A stretch of 64,000 nucleotides of DNA from an uncultured Acidobacteriota bacterium (GTDB lineage Bacteria; Acidobacteriota; Thermoanaerobaculia; Multivoradales; JAHEKO01), in NCBI GenBank assembly GCA_963713825.1, contig CAVQNG010000003.1, forward strand, positions 608,001 through 672,000, written 5' to 3'. The notes below the pieces were generated by a model. That model had not been told where the DNA came from and did not search any database. It saw nothing but the letters and a program-made list of their open reading frames with translations. Positions 31,615-45,032 of the stretch are shown in pieces; position 1 is the first letter of the stretch; the number at the start of each line of letters is the position of its first letter. The position numbers and the translations under genes are program-made.

Positions 31615-34600
31615 ATGCGCAAGTTGGCTTCGCTGGCCCTACCGATCAGCCTCGCCCTTCTCGCCTTCCCCGCGCTCCCGGCTTCAGCAGCACAGCCCGA
31701 GAACGGGCTTTCGTCTCTTCCATCACCTCTCGACCCGCGCCTCGAGATTCTGAGGTCCGAGCTCGCTGTTACCGAGAGGCAGATCGAAGACTTCCAGCGA
31801 GACAGGGTCGGCCGACTCTCCTCGATGGGCACTGCTCGTCCGAGACTCTCGAACGCGGACATGTACCCCGATCGCCTCGAAAGACTGGCTGAGCGCCTGA
31901 CAGCCTTGCGATCCGACTGGAAAGCTCTACCGGAAGCGGAGGCATCCGAGCTATTCAATGCTCTCCGAGGGCAGGTGCGCCGTTTGCACCGCGATGTGTC
32001 GAACTCTCGGTTTGCGCTGCAGAGACTCGCGAGTCGAAGTTCTGCTTTCTCTGCTACAGGGGTGGCGGCTCCGGGCACCGGTGCGATCACAGGGACTGTA
32101 ACGGAAGTGGGTAGCGGCACGCCCCTGTCGGGGACCTATGTCGAGATCTACAACTCGTCCGGCTCCTATGTCGAGGCCACCTTCACCAATGGTTCAGGGG
32201 TGTACACCTCGACAACCGGACTCGATACCGGTGACTACTACGCCCGGACCTACAACCAGAGTGGCCACATCGATGAGCTCTACGACGATATTCAGTGTGT
32301 TGGTTGGTGCACGGTTACCACTGGTACTCCGGTAGGCGTGACCGACGGGCTGACGACCAGCGGCATCGATTTCGCTCTGACCCCTGGCGGCCGCACTTCC
32401 GGCACGGTCACCGAGGAGGTCGGCTTCAGTGGGATCTCCGGGGTCTATGTCGATATCTACGACTCGACTGGCAGGTACGTATCCGAGGGCTATACCGACG
32501 GGGCCGGCAACTACATCAGCGATGCCGGACTCCCGACGGGTAACTACTATGCCCGCACCTATAACGGCGACGGCTATATCGACGAGCTCTATGACGACAT
32601 TCAGTGCGTGGGTAACTGCGACAAGACCAGCGGTACGCCCATCGCTGTAACCATCGGCGTCGAAACCACCGGCATCGATTTCGAGCTCGCGGAAGGCGGC
32701 CTGATCTCAGGGTCCGTCGAGGATGGCAGCACCCACCTCCCGATCTCTTCCGCCTGGGTGAACGTCTACAACAGCAGCGGCAACTACGTCTCTACCGAGT
32801 ACCCGGATGGGGCTGGGATCTACACCTCGGAAACGGGTCTGCCTACAGGCACCTACTACGCTCGCACCAACAACGATGACGGCTACCTCAACGAGCTCTA
32901 CGATGACATCCTCTGCACCAACGACTGTACTGTGACCACTGGAACGCCCATCGCCGTCACGAAGGGAGCCACGACCTCGGGCATCGACTTCGAGCTCGTG
33001 AAGGGTGGCGCCATCGAGGGAACGGTCACTGAAGAGGGAACCGGAACACCTCTGGACAGCGGCTTCATCAGGATCTACAACGCCTCCGGAGACTATCTCG
33101 CCAGTTCCTACCCTGACGGCGCCGGGAACTACAAGACCTCCGCCGGTCTGGTCTCTGGCACCTACTACGCTCTGACCCGGAGCTTCGAGGGCTACCTCCA
33201 TGAGCTCTACGACGACCTGCCCTGCTACTTCGGGTGCACCGTGACGGACGGAACACCCATCAACGTCACCGCCGGCAGCACGACCTCCAACATCGACTTC
33301 GCCCTGGTCCAGGGTGGCCTAATCGCCGGCACCGTCACGGAGGACGGCACCAGCAACGGGCTCGATGAAGGCTATGTCGGGATCTACGATGCGTCCGGAG
33401 ACTGGACAATTGATACCTATCCAGAGGCAAACGGCGACTACGTTACTTATGCAGGTCTCCCCGCCGGCACCTATTACGCTCGTACCTGGAGCTTCGAGGG
33501 ATATTTCGAGGAGCTGTACGACGACATTCCCTGCGACGGCGGCTGCACTGTCACCGATGGGACTCCGATTGTCGTCACTGCAGGCAACACCACTTCCAAC
33601 ATCGACTTCGCTCTTCTCGAGGGCGGCTCGATCACCGGCACCGTGACAGAACAGGGTACCTCCACGAAGCTCGCCAACATCGACGTGAACATCTACGACA
33701 GCGGGGGAACCTGGGTCGCCGAGGGCTGGACGGACGCCAACGGTGACTATGCAAGCTCGGTGGGCCTGACGACCGGTACCTACTACGCCAGGACCTACAA
33801 CTCGGACAGCTACATCAACGAGCTCTACGACGATCTGCCCTGCGCCGGCGGCTGCACTGTCACCGATGGCACGCCGATCGCCGTCACCATCGGAACAACC
33901 ACTTCGGGCATCGACTTCGCGCTGGTGAAGGGCGGGACCATCTCCGGCACAGTTACCGCCGACGGCTCGGGAACCCCTCTCGACAGCGGTTACGTCAGAA
34001 TCTACGACTCGAGCTCCAACTCTCTGTTCAGGGCCTACCCGAACACCTCCGGCGTCTATGAGACCGACACAGGACTCCCGTCGGGCACCTACTATGCCAA
34101 GGCGCAGAGTTTCGAGGGCTATGTGACCGAGCTCTACGATGACATCCCCTGCGCCTTCGGATGCACCGCCACCGACGGCACTCCGATCGCTGTCACAGGG
34201 GGTGCTACCACAGCCGACATCGACTTCGCGCTCGACGCAGAGGCTTCGATCTCCGGTGCGGTCACCGACGACACCACCCACGCTGGTCTCGATACTGGCT
34301 ATCTCTACTTCTACGATGCGAGTGGGAATTCGCTGACGAGCGTCAATCCGGACGCCAATGGCGATTACAGTCTCGGGGGCCTCCCTGGCGGCACCTTCTA
34401 CGCTAGAACCTTCAGCTTCGAGACCTACTATGAAGAGCTCTACGACGACATCGACTGTTCCGACGGCTGCACGATCACCGATGGCACGCCGATCGTGGTC
34501 ACGGCAGGCGCCACGACGAGCGGAATCGACTTCGAGCTCACCAAAGGAGGCTCCATCTCCGGCACCGTCACCGAGGGCAGCGGCCACGCCGGCCTCGACA

Positions 34601-35535
34601 CCGGAAGGGTCGACATTTACGCCGACAACGGGGACTGGGTTGCCCGAGGGTACCCGGACGTCTCTGGTTTCTATACCTCAACCAAGCCCCTGGCTGCTGG
34701 TACCTATTTCGCTCGGACCTACAGCTTCGAGGGTTACCAAGACGAGCTCTATGACGACATCTCCTGTGTGGGCGGCTGCACGATCACTTCGGGCACCCCC
34801 ATCGTCGTCACTGCGGGCGCAACGACGAGCGGGATCGACTTCGAGCTGGATGTCGGAGGCTTCATCTCAGGCACCATCACCGACGACACCTCCCACGACC
34901 CGCTCGATACGGGATACGTCGACATCTACAACGCTGCAGGAAGCTGGGTGTCCAGCGCCTATCCCAATGCCTCTGGAGACTACATCTCGAACAACGCCCT
35001 CCCCACCGGCTCCTACTACGCCCGCACGGGGAGTTTCGAAGGCTACTTCAACGAGCTCTACGACAACCTTCCGTGTAACGACGGGTGCACCGCGACCGAC
35101 GGAACGCCCATCCTGGTCACAGCCGGCCTGACCACCTCGAGCATCGACTTCGAGCTCGCTGCGGGAGGGCTGATTTCCGGGACGGTCACCGACGCTAGGA
35201 CCGGATCGCCACTGGATTTCGGGCGGGTCTCCATCTACAACGCCACCGGCGGCTACGTGACCAGGGGCTATCCCGATTCGTCGGGGGACTACACCGTGCA
35301 GAAAGCGCTCGAGGCGGGCACCTACTACGCCCGCACCTCGAGCTTTGAGGACTACTTCGAGGAACTCTACTCGGAGATCTCCTGTGCGCTGGACTGCACG
35401 ATCACGAATGGCACGCCGATCTCGGTGACCCTCGGCTCCGAGACGACCGGCATCGACTTCACCCTGGACCGGTCGGTCTTCGCCGATGGTTTCGAGTCGG
35501 GCAACCTGTCCTCCTGGTCCGCGACTGTGCAGTAG
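31615..35535 (+). CDS. Large secreted protein with 11 tandem carboxypeptidase-regulatory-like beta-sandwich repeats and a C-terminal FADGFESG motif
   Basis: Signal peptide; 11 copies of G.I.GTVT...Y.ART...ELY(D/S)..CxxxC....GTP...IDF.L; ends VFADGFESGNLSSWSATVQ; GAGGAG RBS. Confidence 0.9.
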   Translation: MRKLASLALPISLALLAFPALPASAAQPENGLSSLPSPLDPRLEILRSELAVTERQIEDFQRDRVGRLSSMGTARPRLSNADMYPDRLERLAERLTALRSDWKALPEAEASELFNALRGQVRRLHRDVSNSRFALQRLASRSSAFSATGVAAPGTGAITGTVTEVGSGTPLSGTYVEIYNSSGSYVEATFTNGSGVYTSTTGLDTGDYYARTYNQSGHIDELYDDIQCVGWCTVTTGTPVGVTDGLTTSGIDFALTPGGRTSGTVTEEVGFSGISGVYVDIYDSTGRYVSEGYTDGAGNYISDAGLPTGNYYARTYNGDGYIDELYDDIQCVGNCDKTSGTPIAVTIGVETTGIDFELAEGGLISGSVEDGSTHLPISSAWVNVYNSSGNYVSTEYPDGAGIYTSETGLPTGTYYARTNNDDGYLNELYDDILCTNDCTVTTGTPIAVTKGATTSGIDFELVKGGAIEGTVTEEGTGTPLDSGFIRIYNASGDYLASSYPDGAGNYKTSAGLVSGTYYALTRSFEGYLHELYDDLPCYFGCTVTDGTPINVTAGSTTSNIDFALVQGGLIAGTVTEDGTSNGLDEGYVGIYDASGDWTIDTYPEANGDYVTYAGLPAGTYYARTWSFEGYFEELYDDIPCDGGCTVTDGTPIVVTAGNTTSNIDFALLEGGSITGTVTEQGTSTKLANIDVNIYDSGGTWVAEGWTDANGDYASSVGLTTGTYYARTYNSDSYINELYDDLPCAGGCTVTDGTPIAVTIGTTTSGIDFALVKGGTISGTVTADGSGTPLDSGYVRIYDSSSNSLFRAYPNTSGVYETDTGLPSGTYYAKAQSFEGYVTELYDDIPCAFGCTATDGTPIAVTGGATTADIDFALDAEASISGAVTDDTTHAGLDTGYLYFYDASGNSLTSVNPDANGDYSLGGLPGGTFYARTFSFETYYEELYDDIDCSDGCTITDGTPIVVTAGATTSGIDFELTKGGSISGTVTEGSGHAGLDTGRVDIYADNGDWVARGYPDVSGFYTSTKPLAAGTYFARTYSFEGYQDELYDDISCVGGCTITSGTPIVVTAGATTSGIDFELDVGGFISGTITDDTSHDPLDTGYVDIYNAAGSWVSSAYPNASGDYISNNALPTGSYYARTGSFEGYFNELYDNLPCNDGCTATDGTPILVTAGLTTSSIDFELAAGGLISGTVTDARTGSPLDFGRVSIYNATGGYVTRGYPDSSGDYTVQKALEAGTYYARTSSFEDYFEELYSEISCALDCTITNGTPISVTLGSETTGIDFTLDRSVFADGFESGNLSSWSATVQ
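32080..35466 (+). repeat. Intragenic tandem repeat, about 309-nt period, 11 units
   Basis: GAGCTCTA anchors at 32275, 32584, 32893 and onward (309-nt spacing). Confidence 0.9.
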
Positions 35536-38240: not shown

Positions 38241-38633
38241 TCAATCCTGACGAGTGGCGTGGATGAGCGCCTCCATGTGGTCCAGATAGCGCTCGAGCGC
38301 TCGTCGCCCCTTCTGGGTCAGCTCGAACTCGGTCCTCGGATAGCGACCCACGAAGCTCTTCTTGCAGTCCACGTAGCCCGCCTCTTCCAGTTTGCGGGCG
38401 TGCACGCTCAGGTTACCGTCGGTCGTTTGTAACAACTCTTTCAATTCGGAGAAGGTCAGAGAGCTGTTGACGGTCAGGGCGCTCATCATGCCCAATCTCA
38501 CCCGCTCGTAAACGAGCCGGTCGAAATCTCGTGCCGTCGGATCCGCCAGATAGCCGGCCAGGCCCTCGAGGTTCTTCTTGGCCTTCTGCCGATGGTCTTC
38601 TGCCGTGTGCCTAGCCACTTGTCTCTTAGCCAC
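38241..38633 (-). CDS. Winged-helix transcriptional regulator (MarR/ArsR-like)
   Basis: DRLVYERVRLGMMSAL...TDGNLSVHARKLEEAGYV..K.F.GR.PRTE. Confidence 0.88.
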   Translation of the reverse strand: MAKRQVARHTAEDHRQKAKKNLEGLAGYLADPTARDFDRLVYERVRLGMMSALTVNSSLTFSELKELLQTTDGNLSVHARKLEEAGYVDCKKSFVGRYPRTEFELTQKGRRALERYLDHMEALIHATRQD

Positions 38634-39240
38634 CGTAGCGCCTCGCGATGATCGCTCCGAACAGGATGTGAAATCCGCCGAACCCGGCCACCAGCAGGAG
38701 GTTGGCCCACGACACCGGCGCCCAGAGAGTCAGCGCGCCGAGTGCCATGAAGCAGAGCCCCATGATGGGGACGGGCCGGACTGAAAAGGTGCCACCGCTG
38801 ACGACACCACTGCCGTAGAGGAGCAACCAGAGCCCCGGGATCCAGCGGGCGGTCGCCGAGTCGCCAAGCGCCACTGTCAGGATGACCGCCGCTACCAGCG
38901 GCGGCGTGACGCTGAACAGGAACCGCCGGCCCACACCCTGCGACAGGCTGACTCCAAGCCCCTTCGCTTTCCGAGCCATGAACCAGCCGCCCACCATCAG
39001 TGCAACGACGGCATCGCCAACCCAGATGGCCAGCCAGTGCTCAGCCAGCGGGGGGGTGGCGGCCAGAAGGCCAGCGATGATCGCCGTGCAACCGATCACG
39101 ATCGCCCCCCAACCGGGAACCGAGGTGAAGGCGGCCGACGACTCCATCGCAAGCCGAATGAAGCGCAGGTTGTCCATGGCATGCGAATGCATGTCCACGG
39201 GTTCCTTTTCTCTCGGCGGTATCGGTGCAGCAGCTCGCAT
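38626..39240 (-). CDS. Multi-TM membrane protein, first gene of the regulator-uppS operon
   Basis: HAMDNLRFIR.AME...FTSVPGWG, PGLWLLLYG and GFGGFHILFGAIIARRYGG; overlaps the regulator start. Confidence 0.8.
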   Translation of the reverse strand: MRAAAPIPPREKEPVDMHSHAMDNLRFIRLAMESSAAFTSVPGWGAIVIGCTAIIAGLLAATPPLAEHWLAIWVGDAVVALMVGGWFMARKAKGLGVSLSQGVGRRFLFSVTPPLVAAVILTVALGDSATARWIPGLWLLLYGSGVVSGGTFSVRPVPIMGLCFMALGALTLWAPVSWANLLLVAGFGGFHILFGAIIARRYGG

Positions 39241-39248
39241 GGCGCGCA

Positions 39249-39295
39249 ACGGTAGTGGATCGATTCCGTCTTGTCAAGTACTTTACAACAAAAAG
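39249..39295 (-). promoter_or_regulatory. Sigma70-type promoter with a putative operator
   Basis: Minus strand TTGACA (39277-39272), 17-nt spacer, TACCGT (39254-39249); the AAGTACTT palindrome and CTTT-N7-AAAG abut the -35. Confidence 0.6.
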
Positions 39296-39426
39296 CATAG
39301 ATTCGCACCTGTGCATGAATCGATATACGCGCCAGCCTCGTCGGCTCGCCACGAGTCGCTCTCGAACCCGGTCCGTCGATGCTAGGATCGCTGCGTTTCC
39401 TGCCTGCCAGGTACGAAAGGAGAGCG

Positions 39427-41394
39427 GTGGAAGGATCGATCGATTACGAGCAAGTAGGGCTGCGGGTCGGGTTGGAGGTTCACCAGCAGCTCCTCACCGA
39501 CCAGAAGATGTTCTGCCGGTGTCCTGCGGGGCTCTACACAGAGACTCATGACGGCGTCATGTTGCGCCACATGCGCCCCACGCTGTCCGAGTTGGGCGAG
39601 TACGACGGCACGGCTCTGATGGAGTTCAAGACGAAGAAGAACATCGTCTATCTCCTCCACAAGAGCAACGTCTGCACCTATGAGATGGACGACACACCCC
39701 CCTTCATCGTCAATCGGCGGGCCATCGACATCGCCATCGAACAGTGCCTGATGCTGGGCTGCGATGTCGTAGACGAGGTTCACATCGCCCGCAAGCAGTA
39801 CCTCGACGGGTCGATTCCCACCGGCTTTCAGCGTACGGCCATCGTCGGTGTCAATGGCCGTCTGCCCTTTCGCGGTCGCGAGTTGACGGTCATCCAGGTG
39901 AGTGTCGAAGAGGACAGCTGCCGCGAAGTCCAGGACAGGGGACACCTGGCGGTCTGGCGCACCGATCGATTGGGCATGCCCCTGATTGAAACGGTCACTG
40001 GGCCAGAGCTCACGACGCCGGAAGAGGTGGAGGAGGCCATTCTGCTCATCGGGCGCGTCTGCCGCTCCACCGGCCATGTTCGTGTCGGCATGGGGGCTAG
40101 TCGCCAGGATGTCAATGTCTCCGTCAGGGGTGGCCGCAGAGTGGAGATCAAAGGCGTCCCCAAGGCCAGTCATGCCCGCCAATTGGTCCACAGCGAAGCC
40201 GTGCGACAGGTCGAGCTACTCAAACTGCGCGACGAGTTGCATCGTCGCGGTTTCGAGAAGCCCTCCGATATCGTCATGGAACACGTCGACATCACGACTC
40301 TCGTCGCCGACTTCCAACTCGATTCCCTGCAACGGGACAACTGGCAGCGCTTCGTCGAAGCTGAAGAGATGCGACGGGGCATGGAGCTGGCTGAAGGCCC
40401 TTTCAGCGTGCGAGCCATCCGCCTGCCGCGCCTTGCCGGCACGATCGGACGACCCTGTCAACCAGGCAGGACTTTCGCGCACGAGCTGGCGGGGCGCGTC
40501 AGGGTCATCGCCACCCTCGATCAGCCACCGATCCTTGTCGACTCTGACGACTGGCCTGACTATCCGGGCGGCATCGAAGAGTTGGAGGAGATCCGCCAGG
40601 CAGCCGCCTGCACCCCCGAAGATGCGCTGGTGGTGGTGTGGGGCATCGAAAGCGACACCATTACTGCCGCCAAGGAGATCCAGCTGCGCTTCGCGGAGGC
40701 CACCGAGGGCATCCCTCACGAGACGCGCCAGGCGCTCGACGACGGCTGCACCGACTTCGAGCGCATCCTCCCCGGCCCCGACCGCATGTATCCGGACACC
40801 GACAGCCCCGCCCAACTCGTCACTCGCGAGCGCGTACACGGCCTGAAGGTCGATCTACCCGAGCCGCCTTGGCAACGAGAGGAGCGCTACAGCGCCGCCG
40901 GTGTATCGACCCCGACGATCCACTTCCTGATTCGGCGAGGTGGAGCCGGCTTGGTGGATCGGGTCGTCGAGGACACCGGATTCGACCTGCGGCGAGCCTG
41001 CCTCTTCTTTGGTGAGGAGCTCAAGGGCCTGCGACGCTCGAGCCTCGCCGTGGACAAGATCACCGAGAATCGGTGGTGTGATCTCTTCGCGCACCTCCAG
41101 AAGCAGCCGGTGCTCTGGGAAGTCCGCCGACAGCTGGTGGAAGGCCTGGTGTACGAGCCCAAAGCCTCCGTCGATGCAGTGATCGCTGCGGATCACCTCG
41201 GTGAGGAGCCGGCTGGCTGGCAGGCAGACGTGACCAAAGCCATGAAAACCACCGCCGCCCGAGGACTCGAAGGGGACAAGCTCGTCGGCACGGTCATGGG
41301 GCTGGTCCTGAGCACCCTGCGTGGCCGAGTGCCGGCAGTGCGAGTCCTCCACGTGATTGACGAGCTGCAAGCGAGGAAGAACGAGAATGACTGA
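39427..41394 (+). CDS. gatE: Glu-tRNA(Gln) amidotransferase subunit E (archaeal type)
   Basis: IDYEQVGLRVGLEVHQQL, LRHMRPTLSELGEYD, DGSIPTGFQRTA, DRLGMPLIE, RQDVNVS...RVEIKGV, AspRS-like insertion, PGPDRMYPDTD; GTG start after AAGGAG. Confidence 0.9.
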   Translation: MEGSIDYEQVGLRVGLEVHQQLLTDQKMFCRCPAGLYTETHDGVMLRHMRPTLSELGEYDGTALMEFKTKKNIVYLLHKSNVCTYEMDDTPPFIVNRRAIDIAIEQCLMLGCDVVDEVHIARKQYLDGSIPTGFQRTAIVGVNGRLPFRGRELTVIQVSVEEDSCREVQDRGHLAVWRTDRLGMPLIETVTGPELTTPEEVEEAILLIGRVCRSTGHVRVGMGASRQDVNVSVRGGRRVEIKGVPKASHARQLVHSEAVRQVELLKLRDELHRRGFEKPSDIVMEHVDITTLVADFQLDSLQRDNWQRFVEAEEMRRGMELAEGPFSVRAIRLPRLAGTIGRPCQPGRTFAHELAGRVRVIATLDQPPILVDSDDWPDYPGGIEELEEIRQAAACTPEDALVVVWGIESDTITAAKEIQLRFAEATEGIPHETRQALDDGCTDFERILPGPDRMYPDTDSPAQLVTRERVHGLKVDLPEPPWQREERYSAAGVSTPTIHFLIRRGGAGLVDRVVEDTGFDLRRACLFFGEELKGLRRSSLAVDKITENRWCDLFAHLQKQPVLWEVRRQLVEGLVYEPKASVDAVIAADHLGEEPAGWQADVTKAMKTTAARGLEGDKLVGTVMGLVLSTLRGRVPAVRVLHVIDELQARKNEND

Positions 41395-42781
41395 GACGAA
41401 CGATCCTCTGAAGGGCTATCGTGGCAGAGCGCGGGAACGGCTGCAAGAGTGGGGGGTACGAGTGTGGAGCGAGGTCCGCATCCGCAACGACGAAGACAGC
41501 ACCTTCGAAGGCGTCATCCTGCCTCGCAGCGAGACCTCTGACGATCTGCACGTTGTCCTGAAACTGGCGACAGGCTACAACGTCGGTCTCCATATCGATC
41601 GCATCCGCGAGGTCGAGGAGTTGGGATTCAAGGAGGCCGTCTACAAGATTCCGGAACAGGAGTTTCCTCACAGCCCCGACCTGCCGAAGGTCACCCTTCT
41701 GGGCACCGGCGGCACCATCGCCTCCCGCCTGGATTATCGAACAGGAGCGGTCATTCCGGCTTTCACCCCTGGTGAGCTTTACGGCGCCGTTCCCGAGTTG
41801 GCAGATCTCTGCAACCTGACGACCCGAAAGATCTTCGGGGTCTTCTCCGAGAACATGGGCTGGGAGGAGTACGCCACCCTGGCGCAGGCCATCGGCGACG
41901 AGATCGAGGCCGGCGTCGACGGCGTCGTCATCGGGCACGGCACCGACACCATGGGCCACACCGCCGCTGTGCTCAGTTTCATGGTCCAGAACAGCCCTGT
42001 TCCCATCGTCGTGGTAGGGAGCCAGAGAAGCTCCGATCGCCCCTCGAGCGACGCAGCGCTGAACCTGATCCACGCCGTGCGCTCGGCGGCCTACGGAGAC
42101 ATCGCTGAAGTCCAGATCTGTATGTTCGGTCCGACTTCCGACCAATACGGCTTACTGCATCGCGGCACCCGCTGTCGCAAAATGCACAGCTCGTATCGCA
42201 GCACCTTTCGCACCGTCGGCGATATTCCCCTTTGCCGGGTAAGCGCCACCGACTTCGGCACGCTGACCCATGAGTACCTACCCCGCAATCCTCACAGACG
42301 GGTGAAGATCGACCCTCGCTACGACGATCGTGTAACGATTCTCTACTACTATCCGGGAATGAAGGCCGATGTCGTGGATGCCCTGGTCGAACAGGACTAC
42401 AAGGGCATTGTCATCGCCGGCACCGGTCTCGGCCACGTCAACAAACCGGTCTTTCCGGCGCTCGAGCGAGCCATCGCCAAAGGTGTCCACGTAGTCATGA
42501 CCGTACAGACTCTCTGGGGCTATGCCCAAATGTACGTCTATGACACGGGTCGCGACCTGCTGGACATCGGCGTCGTGCCGCTCGACAACATGCTGCCGGA
42601 AACGGCACTCATGAAGCTGGGGTGGGTGCTGGGTCATACCCACGATCACGACGAGGTGCGGGAGATGATGCGGCACTCCTACAGCCATGAAATCACCGAA
42701 CGGGAACCCCACAATGGGTATCTCATCCTGCAGGGAGGCCTCCCCGAGACCGAGGAATACATCCTCAGTCAGTGGAAGTAG
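41387..42781 (+). CDS. gatD: Glu-tRNA(Gln) amidotransferase subunit D (asparaginase-like glutaminase)
   Basis: N-terminal VLKLATGYNVG domain, TGGTIASRLDYRTGAV, HGTDTM, GSQRSSDRPSSD, RKMHSS, VYDTGRDL and MLPETA; 8-nt overlap with gatE. Confidence 0.92.
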   Translation: MTETNDPLKGYRGRARERLQEWGVRVWSEVRIRNDEDSTFEGVILPRSETSDDLHVVLKLATGYNVGLHIDRIREVEELGFKEAVYKIPEQEFPHSPDLPKVTLLGTGGTIASRLDYRTGAVIPAFTPGELYGAVPELADLCNLTTRKIFGVFSENMGWEEYATLAQAIGDEIEAGVDGVVIGHGTDTMGHTAAVLSFMVQNSPVPIVVVGSQRSSDRPSSDAALNLIHAVRSAAYGDIAEVQICMFGPTSDQYGLLHRGTRCRKMHSSYRSTFRTVGDIPLCRVSATDFGTLTHEYLPRNPHRRVKIDPRYDDRVTILYYYPGMKADVVDALVEQDYKGIVIAGTGLGHVNKPVFPALERAIAKGVHVVMTVQTLWGYAQMYVYDTGRDLLDIGVVPLDNMLPETALMKLGWVLGHTHDHDEVREMMRHSYSHEITEREPHNGYLILQGGLPETEEYILSQWK

Positions 42782-42797: not shown

Positions 42798-45032
42798 TCA
42801 ATCTTGGATCGTGAACTTTGTGGTGCGGGTCTGGGCGGTGTCATTTCCCGGCCCGTTAGCCCTGACTTCGAGTCGGTAGTCACCCGCTTCCAACCCTTGC
42901 GTCGAGAAGGTGCCGGGAATCCACCGAGTGCCACCGAAACCGGTTGGCAGGGATTCGTGCCAGCGCACCTCTGGCGTCTCGACCGGCTCGCCGCCCAGAG
43001 TCAGGATCCGGGCCTCGATACCTGGGCGTACGTTTCCCGAGGTCAAAACCGGTACCAGAATCGAGGCCTGAGTGCCGGTTCCCAGCGCCGGGCTCACCCA
43101 GGGCATGAACCGGCTCTCACCAGCAACCAGGAGATCGCCGCTCCCGGCGCTCTGGGTTGAAGGGTCCGTCACCATGAGCCACTGTCCAGAGTCGTCGACA
43201 AACAAGGGGGCGCCAACATGAAGCGCCAGCTCTGGCGCCTCGGGGACCAACAACCGGGTCGTCGATAACGAAACTTCGCCACTCCTCAGGTTGCGAACCA
43301 TGACTCGGAGCTGGTAATCACCCGGAGGCAAGTCGAGCTCGCCGAAAAACCGCACTCCTCCATTGCCCAGGTGCTTCTCCAACTCCCCCAGGTCGAGCTG
43401 AAAACCACTGGCGAAGAAGCCCTGTACTTTCCAGTCCCCGTCGATGGCAAAAACCTGGATCTCGAGAGCCGACTTGTCTTTGCTCCGCTTGCGCTCCGGC
43501 GAAAGGTCTTCCCATGGCAGATCCACCAGCACTGGCACACGCCAGCGACCGTCCTCCAGCACCAAGGGCTCAGCGAGCGTGGCAATCTGCAGCTCCTCGA
43601 CCTCTTCGGCGGTCAGCACCATCTCGGCGGCATCGACGCGCCACTCCGACAATAATCGGTCCCGAGTCGGTTCGGGTGCATAGTAGCCCGGCCGATGAAA
43701 AATCTTGGCGCGGCGCAGGGGGGTCGCGAGCCGCACCTCGATCTCGTGATACTGCCCATCCCATTCCAGGTCCTGCGGCTGAAAGCTCAAGACGTAGCTC
43801 GCCCCGGTTCGCCGCAGCACCCGTGCTGTGGCCTGGCTGAGGTCGTTGAAGTTCTCCTGCAGCTCACCCCCTGTCTCCTTGGCCAGGTAGAGCAAGGAAT
43901 CGGCAGAGTAACCTCGCCGCTGTCGGGCCTCGGGAATCCCGCTCACATCCACGGCATAGACAGTCCAGCCGCTATTGCGAATGCCGCGGAGCAGCTCCTG
44001 AAGGTAGCCGAGACCCAGGGCGTCCCTCAAGAGACTGTTGTCGAAGCCCTCGGACAAGAGAACGAACTGCTTCTCGCCCGTGATCTCTCTCAGTAGCGTG
44101 AAGAGCTCCGCCAGAGACCGAGACATCGCTCGCAGATTGCTCATGTCGGGCCCACCAGCAAGCTGCGGCGCCAGGTCGATTGGCTTCTGCGCGGCAATCT
44201 GAACCCATCGGACCTCTTTCTTGTAGGCACCGACTGACCCGCCCTGCTCCCCCGCGCCCGGGACCTCCGGGCCGCCACTCGTCGGCACGGCGATGGCTAC
44301 GGAGGGACTCACCAGGGCCAGAGCCGCCGTCGCACCGAGCTCCTCGGTCAGGCGTTGAAAGACCTGCACCGAAGAATCCGCAGCCCCGTCGTTGGCGCCG
44401 AAGCGAAGCTGATTCAGGTGCTCGATGATCGAGCGCTGTGCCTGTCGATCTGCTTCCAGGATCGCTCCGACCAGATCGAGGGCGGCCGATAGCTCCTCCG
44501 GTTCGTTGGTAAAGCCGATCAGAAGAGTCAGACCCGAGAGCTTGCCATAGGTGGCGACTGCCACCCGATCCATGGGATGAAGCTGGCTCGAGGCCATTTT
44601 CCGGACCGCCTTCAGGGAACGCGCGAGATACTGCCGGCGAGTGCTGCTGAAATCGAAGAGGACCAAGAGGCGGCGACCTGCCGCCCGAGTCTCCAGAGGC
44701 TCGCTTGTCGGCGGCAGGCTCTCGAACCGAGCCAGCACCTGTGACTCGAAGGCCGTGATCTCCTGCAACTCTCCCTGGTCGTAGATCTCGAAGTCGTCCT
44801 TCGTCAGCCCGGCGATCGGCTCACCCTTGACGAGAACTCGGACCGGAACCTCCACAACCGTCACTTCAAGTGTTTCGGAGTACTGATCCGAGGACAGAGG
44901 TGAATCCTCAGGGGTCACCTGGGCGTCGAGCAGAGCGGGCAACACCCCGGCTGAGATGCAAAGTGCACCGAGTCCTATCGTGACCACATCTCTCCACCTA
45001 GATCCCATATCAGCTGGCTTCATGCAATCCAT
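42798..45032 (-). CDS. Acidobacterial VWFA-related domain protein
   Basis: EVTVVEVPVRV...GLTKDDFEIYDQG, LFDFSS, KQFVLLSEG, LAKETGG, YHEIEVRL...HRPGYYAP; start uncertain. Confidence 0.85.
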   Translation of the reverse strand: MDCMKPADMGSRWRDVVTIGLGALCISAGVLPALLDAQVTPEDSPLSSDQYSETLEVTVVEVPVRVLVKGEPIAGLTKDDFEIYDQGELQEITAFESQVLARFESLPPTSEPLETRAAGRRLLVLFDFSSTRRQYLARSLKAVRKMASSQLHPMDRVAVATYGKLSGLTLLIGFTNEPEELSAALDLVGAILEADRQAQRSIIEHLNQLRFGANDGAADSSVQVFQRLTEELGATAALALVSPSVAIAVPTSGGPEVPGAGEQGGSVGAYKKEVRWVQIAAQKPIDLAPQLAGGPDMSNLRAMSRSLAELFTLLREITGEKQFVLLSEGFDNSLLRDALGLGYLQELLRGIRNSGWTVYAVDVSGIPEARQRRGYSADSLLYLAKETGGELQENFNDLSQATARVLRRTGASYVLSFQPQDLEWDGQYHEIEVRLATPLRRAKIFHRPGYYAPEPTRDRLLSEWRVDAAEMVLTAEEVEELQIATLAEPLVLEDGRWRVPVLVDLPWEDLSPERKRSKDKSALEIQVFAIDGDWKVQGFFASGFQLDLGELEKHLGNGGVRFFGELDLPPGDYQLRVMVRNLRSGEVSLSTTRLLVPEAPELALHVGAPLFVDDSGQWLMVTDPSTQSAGSGDLLVAGESRFMPWVSPALGTGTQASILVPVLTSGNVRPGIEARILTLGGEPVETPEVRWHESLPTGFGGTRWIPGTFSTQGLEAGDYRLEVRANGPGNDTAQTRTTKFTIQD

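What the first reader, a model, noticed from the sequence alone, without database searches (positions are those of the whole stretch)
39427..42781. Archaeal-type GatDE amidotransferase operon in a Gram-negative bacterium
Seen: full-length, translationally coupled gatE and gatD with their family motifs, GC-rich like their neighbours and among clearly bacterial genes. Known: GatDE is the characteristic archaeal Glu-tRNA(Gln) amidotransferase, whereas bacteria use GatCAB or GlnRS. Inferred: an old inter-domain transfer. The GatE C-terminal tRNA-binding region looks divergent, so it may be adapted to bacterial tRNA(Gln) or repurposed to amidate another substrate.
Basis: partly seen in the sequence, partly recalled or inferred. 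Interest (0 to 1): 0.75.

Follow-up and report, generated by a model that had tools for sequence, protein, structure and literature searches.

The report
Bacterial GatDE operon beside GlnRS
This sediment bacterium carries an intact, conserved copy of GatDE, the two-protein enzyme that textbooks call archaea-only for making glutamine-charged tRNA, but hundreds of bacterial species have the same pair and nearly all of them also have the direct enzyme GlnRS, so what the pair is for in bacteria is unclear.

Summary
Window 39427-41394 (+) is gatE and 41387-42781 (+) is gatD. They overlap by 8 nt, score above NCBI's GatE and GatD equivalog cut-offs, and are under strong purifying selection. The genome is a Thermoanaerobaculia-type acidobacterium, and the same protein lies on a 1.9 Mb public contig, so the contig is not chimeric.

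This scan has found such operons on other DNA at least seven times. Here too it is an ordinary member of a large, monophyletic bacterial GatE clade that spans many phyla and is already named GatE in databases, although reviews say "only in archaea". That clade is separate from archaeal GatE. Whether it is sister to all archaea or nested beside Asgard lineages is unresolved.

New here:
- The genome has GlnRS, AsnRS, AsnA and AsnB, and no GatCAB.
- Among 42 GatE-positive acidobacterial genomes at least 90% complete, 39 have GlnRS and none lacks both GlnRS and GatB.
- The only GluRS probably keeps the arginine typical of discriminating enzymes.
- Both tRNA-Gln genes carry bacterial U1-A72, not the A1-U72 that archaeal GatDE reads.
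- The GatE tail is relatively relaxed in bacteria.

Best reading: a working Glu-tRNA(Gln) amidotransferase that acts as a second route. A repurposed substrate is not excluded.

The parts
39418..39422 (+). Shine-Dalgarno-like AGGAG, 4 nt before the gatE start codon
   Evidence: Read directly from the sequence.
39427..41394 (+). gatE, 655 aa from GTG 39427. It encodes the kinase/amidation subunit of GatDE: cradle core, AspRS-like insertion, and a helical C-terminal region ending in a YqeY-like tail.
   Evidence: NF003107 scores 462.3 bits (cut-off 456) and TIGR00134 scores 401.9 bits (cut-off 319.55). The best PDB sequence matches are 1zq1_C and 2d6f_C. The AF2 model has pLDDT 94.0, and its best Foldseek matches are 1zq1_C and 2d6f (TMt 0.79-0.82). 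The exact 655-aa product is in public collections. dN/dS is 0.09-0.15.
41374..41379 (+). Shine-Dalgarno-like AGGAAG inside the end of gatE, upstream of the gatD start
   Evidence: Read directly from the sequence.
41387..41394 (+). 8-nt overlap between the gatD start (ATG 41387) and the gatE stop (TGA 41392-41394)
   Evidence: Read directly from the sequence. gatD follows gatE directly in 76 of 80 related bacterial loci; the other 4 end at a contig edge.
41387..42781 (+). gatD, 464 aa. It encodes the asparaginase-type glutaminase subunit and carries the GatD N-terminal domain.
   Evidence: TIGR02153 scores 494.7 bits (cut-off 324). Pfam finds GatD_N, Asparaginase and Asparaginase_C. PDB matches are 1zq1_A at 408.8 bits and 2d6f_A at 385.2 bits, with the TGGTIAS, HGTDTM, RSSDRPSSDA and RKMH stretches conserved. 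dN/dS is 0.04-0.06.

Best explanation
This is a resident, functional gatE-gatD operon of the large bacterial GatDE clade.

Proposed mechanism, inferred from the archaeal enzyme:
1. GatD hydrolyses Gln or Asn to release ammonia.
2. The ammonia passes to GatE.
3. GatE phosphorylates the side-chain carboxylate of Glu attached to tRNA-Gln, using ATP.
4. GatE amidates the activated intermediate to give Gln-tRNA(Gln).

The cell also has GlnRS, AsnRS, AsnA and AsnB, and has no GatCAB. GatDE is therefore not the only supplier. Most likely it is a second or backup route, or a clean-up enzyme for Glu-tRNA(Gln). It would have to be re-tuned, perhaps through its relaxed tail, to bacterial tRNA-Gln with U1-A72.

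Shown: identity, integrity, conservation, clade membership and gene content. Inferred: substrate, physiological role and tRNA recognition.
For: Identity and integrity
- Equivalog scores lie above cut-off for both subunits.
- All 30 columns invariant across 80 bacterial and archaeal GatE sequences are kept in the window protein.
- The GatD catalytic motifs are conserved.
- The GatE model is confident (pLDDT 94.0, pTM 0.91) and matches GatE of 1zq1 and 2d6f best.
- dN/dS against close kin, at unsaturated dS of 0.58-0.90, is 0.09-0.15 for gatE and 0.04-0.06 for gatD.
- gatE and gatD are adjacent in 76 of 80 loci.
- Short metatranscriptome contigs from 4 studies lie on both genes with 0-8 mismatches each. 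This is a weak hint of transcription with no DNA control.

Link to tRNA-Gln
- tRNA-Gln(CUG) sits directly upstream of gatE in 2 of 80 loci.

Second-route reading
- The own genome (96% complete) has GlnRS at 781.5 bits, AsnRS, asnB and AsnA. It has no GatB, and its best GatA-like hit scores 188 bits against a cut-off of 481.
- GlnRS is present in 39 of 42 GatE-positive genomes at least 90% complete. The other 3 have GatB.
- GlnRS is present in 44 of 50 genomes in each of two further GatE-positive sets.
Against: - No source of Glu-tRNA(Gln) is evident. There is one GluRS. In a 38-sequence alignment it keeps a conserved Arg in the motif that matches T. thermophilus R356-P357-R358, as do GatE-less relatives. 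R358Q is what turns that enzyme non-discriminating (PMC2978374, introduction passage). A pairwise phmmer alignment puts Ala at that position instead, so the residue assignment is uncertain.
- A second GluRS copy is no commoner with GatE: 4 of 14 GatE-positive against 7 of 14 GatE-negative genomes, all lacking GatB.
- Archaeal GatDE reads A1-U72 (PMC2330236, section 5 passages), whereas both tRNA-Gln genes here have U1-A72.
- No genome at least 90% complete needs GatDE for Gln-tRNA (0 of 42). The 7 candidate GatDE-only genomes are of unknown completeness.
- The tail that binds the tRNA D-loop is the least conserved part of the protein in bacteria.
Confidence: 0.6

Rival explanations
1. Bacterial GatDE has shifted or widened its substrate to Asp-tRNA(Asn). 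It would then be a GatCAB replacement for tRNA-dependent asparagine formation, or a dual Gln/Asn amidotransferase like bacterial GatCAB.
For: - GatE is enriched in genomes without GatB: 26 of 42 GatE-positive against 26 of 159 GatE-negative genomes lack GatB. This is a hand cross, and the genomes are related, so the counts are not independent.
- In this genome both tRNA-Gln genes and tRNA-Asn begin with U1-A72, the pair that bacterial GatCAB uses for both substrates (PMC2330236 passage).
- One GatE-positive, GatB-negative genome (G003, Mb-size contigs) shows no AsnRS, only AspRS- and LysRS-like hits.
Against: - AsnRS is present in 25 of 25 GatE-positive, GatB-negative genomes at least 90% complete, in 48 of 51 overall over the cut-off (two of the other three hold frameshifted pieces), and in 25 of 27 of the diverse set.
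- The own genome has AsnRS, asnB, AsnA and a single AspRS.
- Archaeal GatDE is Gln-specific (PMC2330236 passage).
Confidence: 0.12
2. The pair has been kept for a job outside routine Gln-tRNA supply. Examples are amidation of some other carboxylate substrate, or a conditional or regulatory role, with tRNA recognition by the tail relaxed.
For: - The pair always sits beside a complete direct pathway.
- The GluRS has the discriminating-type Arg.
- Tail consensus is 0.28-0.37 in bacteria against 0.43-0.46 in archaea, while the bacterial core is more conserved than the archaeal core.
- Pfam's YqeY and GAD models do not fire at E<=0.001.
Against: - The whole cradle active site and the GatD triad motifs are unchanged.
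- The tail still aligns end to end with NF003107 (positions 3-623 of 630) and folds confidently.
- No conserved partner gene points to another pathway: beyond gatE and gatD, no neighbour family occurs in more than 8 of 80 loci once antisense shadow frames are set aside.
- tRNA-Gln lies adjacent in 2 loci.
Confidence: 0.15
3. Artefact: an archaeal fragment mis-assembled or mis-binned into a bacterial genome, or a very recent import.
For: A few labels conflict with clade membership elsewhere. Three Thermoplasmatota-labelled contigs fall in the bacterial clade, and one Chloroflexota-labelled contig falls among Bathyarchaeota.
Against: - The window lies inside a contig whose public version is 1.9 Mb.
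- GC matches the flanks.
- The closest relatives (83-87% identity) are Thermoanaerobaculia/Acidobacteriota MAGs. About 6 of the 80 related loci share the left-flank gene families, by my reading of the clusters.
- The operon's words occur in 14 DNA runs of sediment metagenomes from 10 studies.
- The protein is only 30-35% identical to archaeal GatE.
Confidence: 0.02
4. A decaying relic with no function.
For: By gene content it looks redundant.
Against: Both frames are intact. dN/dS is 0.04-0.15 and the catalytic columns are invariant. The pair is retained across many phyla.
Confidence: 0.03

Closest known systems
Archaeal GatDE (Methanothermobacter thermautotrophicus, PDB 2D6F; Pyrococcus abyssi, PDB 1ZQ1)
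   Same: - Same two subunits and the same domain order.
- Equivalog-level HMM scores.
- GatD matches at 385-409 bits and GatE at 281-303 bits over the full length.
- Best structural match, TMt 0.79-0.82.
- All invariant cradle residues and the GatD catalytic motifs are kept.
   Different: - The host is a bacterium that has GlnRS.
- The protein belongs to a separate clade, about 30-35% identical to archaeal GatE.
- The resident tRNA-Gln genes have U1-A72, not A1-U72 (PMC2330236 passage).
- The archaeal insertion-domain consensus 'HSDELP.YGI' is replaced in the bacterial clade.
- The tail is less conserved.
Bacterial GatCAB (GatB is the paralogue of GatE)
   Same: Same chemistry and the same cradle fold. 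GatB chains are the next structural matches (TMt 0.52-0.74). GatCAB is the usual bacterial solution and reads U1-A72 (PMC2330236 passage).
   Different: - GatB models score at most 120 bits against cut-offs of 315 or more.
- The ammonia donor subunit is an asparaginase-type GatD, not the amidase GatA.
- There is no GatC.
- GatCAB is not found in this genome.
Bacteria that keep an amidotransferase beside GlnRS and AsnRS (Deinococcus, Thermus, Bdellovibrio with GatCAB)
   Same: A tRNA-dependent amidotransferase coexists with both direct synthetases (PMC4206432, abstract as shown in the listing).
   Different: There the enzyme is GatCAB. It is commonly explained as the route to asparagine; that explanation is recalled, not read here. 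Here the enzyme is GatDE, and AsnA and asnB are both present, so that explanation does not carry over.

Membership tests
GatDE, subunit E (GatE) | Scores above the curated equivalog cut-off and better than GatB models | tested here: met
   NF003107 scores 462.3 bits against 456. TIGR00134 scores 401.9 bits against 319.55. The best GatB model scores 119.7 bits against 338.
GatDE, subunit E (GatE) | Cradle catalytic core with the family's invariant residues | tested here: met
   30 of 30 columns invariant across 80 bacterial and archaeal sequences are kept in the window protein.
GatDE, subunit E (GatE) | AspRS-like insertion domain plus a helical domain and a YqeY-like tail | tested here: met
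   The protein aligns end to end with NF003107 (positions 3-623 of 630) and with 1zq1_C (query 20-658). In the AF2 model the C-terminal helices have pLDDT 90-97. The best folds are GatE, with weak AspRS hits. Caveats: Pfam's GAD and GatB_Yqey models do not fire at E<=0.001. The crystal chains resolve only 485-522 residues, so the tail itself was not superposed.
GatDE, subunit D (GatD) | GatD N-terminal domain plus an asparaginase fold with the Thr/Thr-Asp/Lys catalytic motifs | tested here: met
   PF18195, PF00710 and PF17763 all hit. TIGR02153 scores 494.7 bits against 324. The TGGTIAS, HGTDTM and RKMH stretches are identical to those in 1zq1_A and 2d6f_A. Which residues within these stretches are catalytic is recalled, not tested.
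GatDE holoenzyme | The D and E subunits form a complex (heterotetramer in archaea) | not tested
   Only gene adjacency (76 of 80 loci) and the 8-nt overlap bear on this. No complex prediction was run.
GatDE holoenzyme | Converts Glu-tRNA(Gln) to Gln-tRNA(Gln) and does not act on Asp-tRNA(Asn) | not testable with these tools
   Needs an enzyme assay.
GatDE as described in archaea | The substrate tRNA-Gln has A1-U72, which the enzyme recognises | tested here: not met
   Both tRNA-Gln genes of the genome (UUG and CUG) have U1-A72 and G73. The archaeal rule is taken from PMC2330236, section 5 passages.
GatDE as described in archaea | It is the sole route to Gln-tRNA: no GlnRS, and a non-discriminating GluRS | tested here: not met
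   GlnRS scores 781.5 bits and lies next to gltX. The single GluRS probably keeps the Arg358-equivalent, although a pairwise alignment disagrees.
GatDE as described in reviews | Found only in archaea | tested here: not met
   The host genome and its closest relatives are Acidobacteriota. 77 of 80 clade-A loci carry bacterial titles. The review statement 'GatDE only in archaea' is a passage in PMC8007984.
GatCAB, subunit B (GatB) | Scores above the GatB equivalog cut-off, with GatA and GatC partners | tested here: not met
   GatB models score at most 119.7 bits. The genome holds no GatB apart from gatE itself, and its best GatA-like hit scores 187.7 bits against 481.1. GatC was not searched.

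The most novel reading that the evidence does not exclude
Bacterial GatDE may not be a Gln-tRNA supply line at all. It occurs almost only in bacteria that already have GlnRS and a GluRS with the discriminating-type arginine. It has a relaxed tRNA-binding tail and must face U1-A72 tRNAs. It may therefore have been kept across many phyla for a different task. Candidates are amidating another misacylated tRNA (for example Asp-tRNA(Asn), or one particular tRNA-Gln isoacceptor), or a conditional fidelity or rescue role when GlnRS or free glutamine fails.
Probability: 0.25. Interest if true: 0.75.

Novelty: new member of a known kind. Interest (0 to 1): 0.45.

Why it matters
Reviews still teach that GatDE is an archaeal signature (PMC8007984 passage). 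Four of my five accepted full-text searches listed no paper on bacterial GatDE. The fifth returned a scan summary whose unverified wording I do not rely on.

The sequence data show a large bacterial clade. In the genomes searched here it sits beside GlnRS, and beside AsnRS where GatCAB is missing. That turns a curiosity into a testable question. Why would many bacterial phyla keep, under strong purifying selection, an amidotransferase whose textbook substrate should hardly exist in those cells?

The answer bears on how the direct and indirect routes to Gln-tRNA replaced each other, on translational fidelity, and on how an enzyme re-tunes tRNA recognition (A1-U72 to U1-A72) after crossing domains.

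As a single locus, this window is an ordinary member of that clade.

Tried and rejected
- Chimeric contig or recent island: rejected. GC is uniform, the public contig is 1.9 Mb, and the window scan found no tRNA or Rfam hit.
- GatB plus plain asparaginase: rejected.
- Conserved neighbours that might hint at function: none. The next gene family occurs in at most 8 of 80 loci, and the families seen in 20-21 loci are, by their coordinates, alternative frames inside gatD.
- Promoter and terminator scan: nothing found.
- Link to a second GluRS: none.
- GluRS Arg358 test: ambiguous. The pairwise alignment gives Ala, while the family alignment gives a conserved Arg 3 residues on, in GatE-positive and GatE-negative genomes alike. 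I could not add the Thermus sequence to the alignment.
- Gain versus loss: a same-family, GatE-less genome (G177) keeps UppS, HTH and unk207, but then has M16 peptidase genes. This is a synteny break that does not tell gain from loss.
- Mixture-model (C20) tree: did not finish in two runs, so LG+G4 was used.
- Asgard-sister placement: seen in the quick trees, but the AU test does not prefer it.
- Metatranscriptome laying: only short contigs with no DNA control. Uncovered parts mean nothing.
- A single-protein scan with P0052 gave only 3 loci, so alignments were used instead.
- Sheppard and Soll 2008 (PMC2366055) is not held and was not read.
- No complex prediction was run, because this is a textbook pair.
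Full report
**1. What is at the coordinates**

Two same-strand ORFs fill 39379/39427-41394 and 41357/41387-42781.

- For gatE, GTG 39427 sits 4 nt after an AGGAG at 39418-39422. The 655-aa product from that start is the exact sequence held in public collections, whereas the 671-aa ATG version is not.
- For gatD, ATG 41387 follows an AGGAAG at 41374-41379 and overlaps the gatE stop (TGA 41392-41394) by 8 nt.

NCBIfam equivalog models place both proteins above their curated cut-offs.

| Protein | Model | Bits | Cut-off |
|---|---|---|---|
| GatE | NF003107 | 462.3 | 456 |
| GatE | TIGR00134 | 401.9 | 319.55 |
| GatE | best GatB model | 119.7 | 338 |
| GatD | TIGR02153 | 494.7 | 324 |

- Pfam finds GatB_N on GatE, and GatD_N, Asparaginase and Asparaginase_C on GatD.
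- Against solved structures, GatD matches P. abyssi and M. thermautotrophicus GatD at 409 and 385 bits. The TGGTIAS, HGTDTM, RSSDRPSSDA and RKMH stretches are conserved.
- GatE matches 1zq1_C and 2d6f_C at 303 and 281 bits over nearly its whole length.
- An AlphaFold2 model of the 655-aa GatE, built on an 80-sequence alignment, has pLDDT 94.0 and pTM 0.91. Only residues around 300-320 are weak, and the C-terminal helices score 90-97.
- Foldseek ranks GatE of 1zq1 and 2d6f first (TMt 0.79-0.82, about 530-540 columns) and GatB chains next.

**2. Host, and whether the contig is sound**

- The window is C3:608001-672000 of a 5.42 Mb genome in 38 contigs, 96.4% complete and 0.27% contaminated.
- GC across the operon is 0.616-0.639, against 0.588-0.639 for the whole window.
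- Neighbouring genes are bacterial in type: UppS, a winged-helix regulator, an S9 peptidase and CarboxypepD_reg repeat proteins.
- The closest GatE relatives (83-87% identity) come from Thermoanaerobaculia/Acidobacteriota MAGs.
- The exact protein lies on a 1,903,115-bp public contig.
- Words of the operon occur in 14 DNA runs at shares of 0.54-0.77, from sediment and salt-marsh metagenomes of 10 studies.
- I reject a chimera.

**3. The operon is functional**

- Against close kin with unsaturated dS (0.58-0.90), dN/dS is 0.09-0.15 for gatE and 0.036-0.063 for gatD.
- All 30 columns that are invariant across 80 bacterial and archaeal GatE sequences are kept in the window protein.
- Short contigs from RNA libraries of four studies lie on gatE (for example 39801-40146 with 2 mismatches) and on gatD (42271-42420 with 0 mismatches). 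This is only a weak hint of transcription, because DNA carry-over was not controlled.

**4. It belongs to a large bacterial clade**

- A pattern scan of one-genome-per-species contigs found 377 relatives. The best 80 are all bacterial: Acidobacteriota, Planctomycetota, Myxococcota, Gammaproteobacteria (Woeseiaceae, Chromatiales), Ignavibacteria, Eisenbacteria, Fermentibacteria and Riflebacteria. Several lie on Mb-size contigs.
- gatD follows gatE in 76 of those 80 loci. The other 4 end at a contig edge.
- Among 1.84 billion representative proteins, 3051 match at E<=0.001 and 614 at E<=1e-30.
- I built a tree from the 112 stored proteins of 560-720 aa, which are the query plus 111 of the 150 best representatives. 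It splits with support 99 into clade A (37 rows, holding the window, 37-66% identical to it) and clade B (75 rows, 28-38% identical).
- A scan with a clade-B alignment returned 78 of 80 archaeal titles. A scan with a clade-A alignment returned 77 of 80 bacterial titles, adding Bacteroidota, Aminicenantes, Phycisphaerae, WOR-3, Chlorobiota, Calditrichota, Zixibacteria, Cloacimonetes, Krumholzibacteriota and others.
- In a sample of 201 genomes of the window's phylum, each at least 90% complete, GatE is present in 42 (40 over the cut-off) and in 28 of 135 genera. The distribution is patchy. It is present in the same genus, and not found in the sampled genome of the other genus of the family or in the five sampled genomes of other families of the order.
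- Members of the 90% cluster are already named "glutamyl-tRNA(Gln) amidotransferase subunit E" by JGI/IMG.
- This scan's earlier notes reached the same conclusion on other genomes.

**5. Phylogeny**

- Rows kept were those of at least 560 aa without X. I dropped L111 (a GatB-like hit) and L197 (a duplicate of L187). Eight GatB genes from GatE-bearing genomes served as the outgroup.
- Two trees were built: FastTree on 243 rows, and IQ-TREE LG+G4 (quick search) on a thinned set of 107 rows.
- Both recover one bacterial clade with support 100 and a stem of 0.44-0.53 substitutions per site. Three Thermoplasmatota-labelled contigs fall inside it.
- Both quick trees put that clade next to a Njordarchaeota sequence and other Asgard lineages (support 87-92).
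- That placement is not established. When the 45 archaeal rows are constrained to one clan, the search finds a tree 32.3 log-likelihood units better than the free quick search, with p-AU 0.80.
- The bacterial clade may therefore be sister to all archaeal GatE or nested among them. The C20 mixture run did not finish.
- Within the window's own subclade (17 rows, support 96), five phyla are interleaved at 61-87% GatE identity and 74-95% GatD identity. This points to spread between bacterial phyla.
- "One old origin" is supported. Donor and direction are not.

**6. Gene content: the operon is not needed for its textbook job**

In the window's own genome:

| Gene or family | Result |
|---|---|
| GatB | only gatE itself rings |
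| GatA | best hit 187.7 bits against cut-off 481.1 |
| GlnRS | 781.5 bits, directly downstream of the single GluRS |
| AsnRS | 477 bits |
| asnB | 424 bits |
| AsnA-like | 267 bits |
| AspRS | one copy |

In the phylum sample I crossed by hand.

- 39 of 42 GatE-positive genomes have GlnRS. The 3 without it (one family) have GatB.
- 26 of 42 lack GatB, and all 26 of those have GlnRS.
- None of the 42 lacks both.
- For comparison, 108 of 159 GatE-negative genomes have GlnRS and 26 of 159 lack GatB.
- These tallies include three unpublished genomes flagged by the tool (G195, G098, G073), all GatE-negative.

Two further GatE-positive sets, both of unknown completeness:

| Set | GatB | GlnRS | Lacking both |
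|---|---|---|---|
| 50 window-like genomes | 23 of 50 | 44 of 50 over cut-off, plus one split | 3 (one with a GatB fragment) |
| 50 diverse clade-A genomes | 23 of 50 (22 over cut-off) | 44 of 50 | 4 |

- The sets overlap slightly. By coordinates, G002 is the same genome as G165, and G281 the same as G208.
- The seven genomes lacking both are no more than incompleteness could produce.

AsnRS in genomes that have GatE but lack GatB:

- It is present in 25 of 25 genomes at least 90% complete.
- Overall it is over the cut-off in 48 of 51. Two more genomes hold frameshifted pieces, and one (G003) has none.
- It is present in 25 of 27 genomes of the diverse set.

In the genomes searched, bacterial GatDE therefore sits beside complete direct routes.

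**7. Is there a substrate?**

- PMC2978374 (introduction passage) states that mutating Arg358 of T. thermophilus GluRS to Gln makes that enzyme non-discriminating.
- A pairwise phmmer alignment puts Ala of the window genome's GluRS opposite Arg358.
- A MAFFT alignment of 38 GluRS sequences was built from the own genome plus 14 GatE-positive and 14 GatE-negative genomes, all lacking GatB. It shows a conserved Arg three residues further on, in a motif (RPR, QPR, KPR or RER; GDR in the window genome) that matches the Thermus R356-P357-R358.
- That Arg is present in the main GluRS of every genome, with or without GatE. Only some second copies lack it, and those occur in both groups.
- I judge the family alignment more likely correct. 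On that reading the GluRS looks discriminating, and there is no GluRS difference tied to GatE. The point remains uncertain.
- Second GluRS copies are not linked to GatE: 4 of 14 against 7 of 14.

**8. tRNA side**

- The genome has 49 tRNA genes by ARAGORN. The two tRNA-Gln genes (UUG and CUG) both have U1-A72 and G73. tRNA-Asn also starts with U1-A72. tRNA-Glu and tRNA-Asp start with G.
- Passages in PMC2330236, section 5, state four things:
  - M. thermautotrophicus GatDE recognises A1-U72.
  - It uses the D-loop to reject tRNA-Glu and tRNA-Asn.
  - Bacterial GatCAB reads U1-A72.
  - The YqeY-like tail contacts the D-loop.
- A bacterial GatDE must therefore recognise its tRNA differently.
- In keeping with this, conservation of the tail (residues 561-671) is 0.28-0.37 in the bacterial clade against 0.43-0.46 in archaea. 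The bacterial core is more conserved than the archaeal core (0.74-0.85 against 0.59-0.72). The bacterial sample is enriched in close relatives, which inflates its core values.
- The archaeal insertion-domain consensus "HSDELP.YGI" is also replaced in the bacterial consensus.
- tRNA-Gln(CUG) lies just upstream of gatE in 2 of 80 loci, and tRNA-Asn lies there in one.

**9. Context**

- Beyond gatE and gatD, no neighbour family occurs in more than 8 of 80 loci. The families seen in 20-21 loci are, by their coordinates, alternative frames inside gatD.
- The closest relatives share the left flank.
- A GatE-less genome of the same family keeps UppS, HTH and unk207, but then carries M16 peptidase genes. 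This is a synteny break at the operon edge that cannot tell gain from loss.

**10. Literature**

- Five full-text searches were accepted, and I draw on four of them here:
  - gatde + bacteria + horizontal gene transfer: 18 papers.
  - gatde + acidobacteria: 1 paper.
  - gatde from 2014 on: 32 papers, 30 listed.
  - gatd + gate + amidotransferase + metagenome: 0 papers.
- None listed a paper on bacterial GatDE, judged from titles and abstract starts only.
- Sheppard and Soll 2008 is not held and was not read. Supplements were not consulted.

**11. Verdict**

This is a real bacterial GatDE of old, single origin with a divergent tail. It is common rather than exceptional, and its donor is unresolved.
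- The most likely mechanism is canonical Glu-tRNA(Gln) transamidation acting as a second route (confidence about 0.6).
- The consistent co-occurrence with GlnRS, the discriminating-type GluRS and the relaxed tail keep a repurposed role open (about 0.25 in all).

Noticed in passing
own genome C3:122692-126036 and C3:119078-119151 (outside the window): gltX and glnS are adjacent on the same strand. tRNA-Gln(CUG) lies about 3.5 kb upstream on the opposite strand. The two tRNA-Gln isoacceptors differ markedly in the D-arm and variable region.
   Followed up: partly
L198, L201, L267 (Thermoplasmatota-labelled contigs) and L159 (Limnocylindrales-labelled contig): Three contigs labelled archaeal carry bacterial-clade gatE, near the base of that clade. 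One contig labelled Chloroflexota carries a Bathyarchaeota-type gatE. These are either mis-binning or secondary transfers between domains.
   Followed up: no
genome G003 (holds locus L017): This GatE-positive genome with Mb-size contigs shows GlnRS but no GatB and no AsnRS, only AspRS- and LysRS-like hits. It is a candidate for a genome in which GatDE would have to serve tRNA-Asn, or simply an assembly gap.
   Followed up: partly
genomes G023, G025, G263, G264, G267, G290: These GatE-positive MAGs (two Fermentibacteria, Thermoanaerobaculales, Planctomycetota, Rhodothermaceae, Zixibacteria) have neither GlnRS nor GatB detected. If they are complete, GatDE would be their only route to Gln-tRNA. 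Their completeness is unknown.
   Followed up: partly
loci L306 (G205) and L318 (G103): Second GluRS copies that lack the conserved Arg of the RPR-type motif occur in genomes with neither GatE nor GatB. A GluRS2-like enzyme there would have no amidotransferase partner.
   Followed up: no
window 31615-35535 (+): A 1306-aa protein made of CarboxypepD_reg-like repeats, with hits to MG3, DUF1416 and SdrD_B, plus a Por_Secre_tail match just below Pfam's cut-off.
   Followed up: no
window 38626-39249 (-) and 42798-45032 (-): The genes directly flanking the operon have no Pfam family (207 aa) or only a sub-threshold Y_Y_Y hit (744 aa). The 207-aa gene is conserved next to the HTH and UppS genes in a GatE-less relative.
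   Followed up: partly
own genome C14:13574-13666: ARAGORN calls a 93-nt 'tRNA-Glu(CTC)' with an odd sequence. It is probably a false call or a degenerate tRNA-like element.
   Followed up: no
genomes G013 and G015: AsnRS is split into adjacent frames. These are probably long-read indel errors rather than pseudogenes.
   Followed up: no
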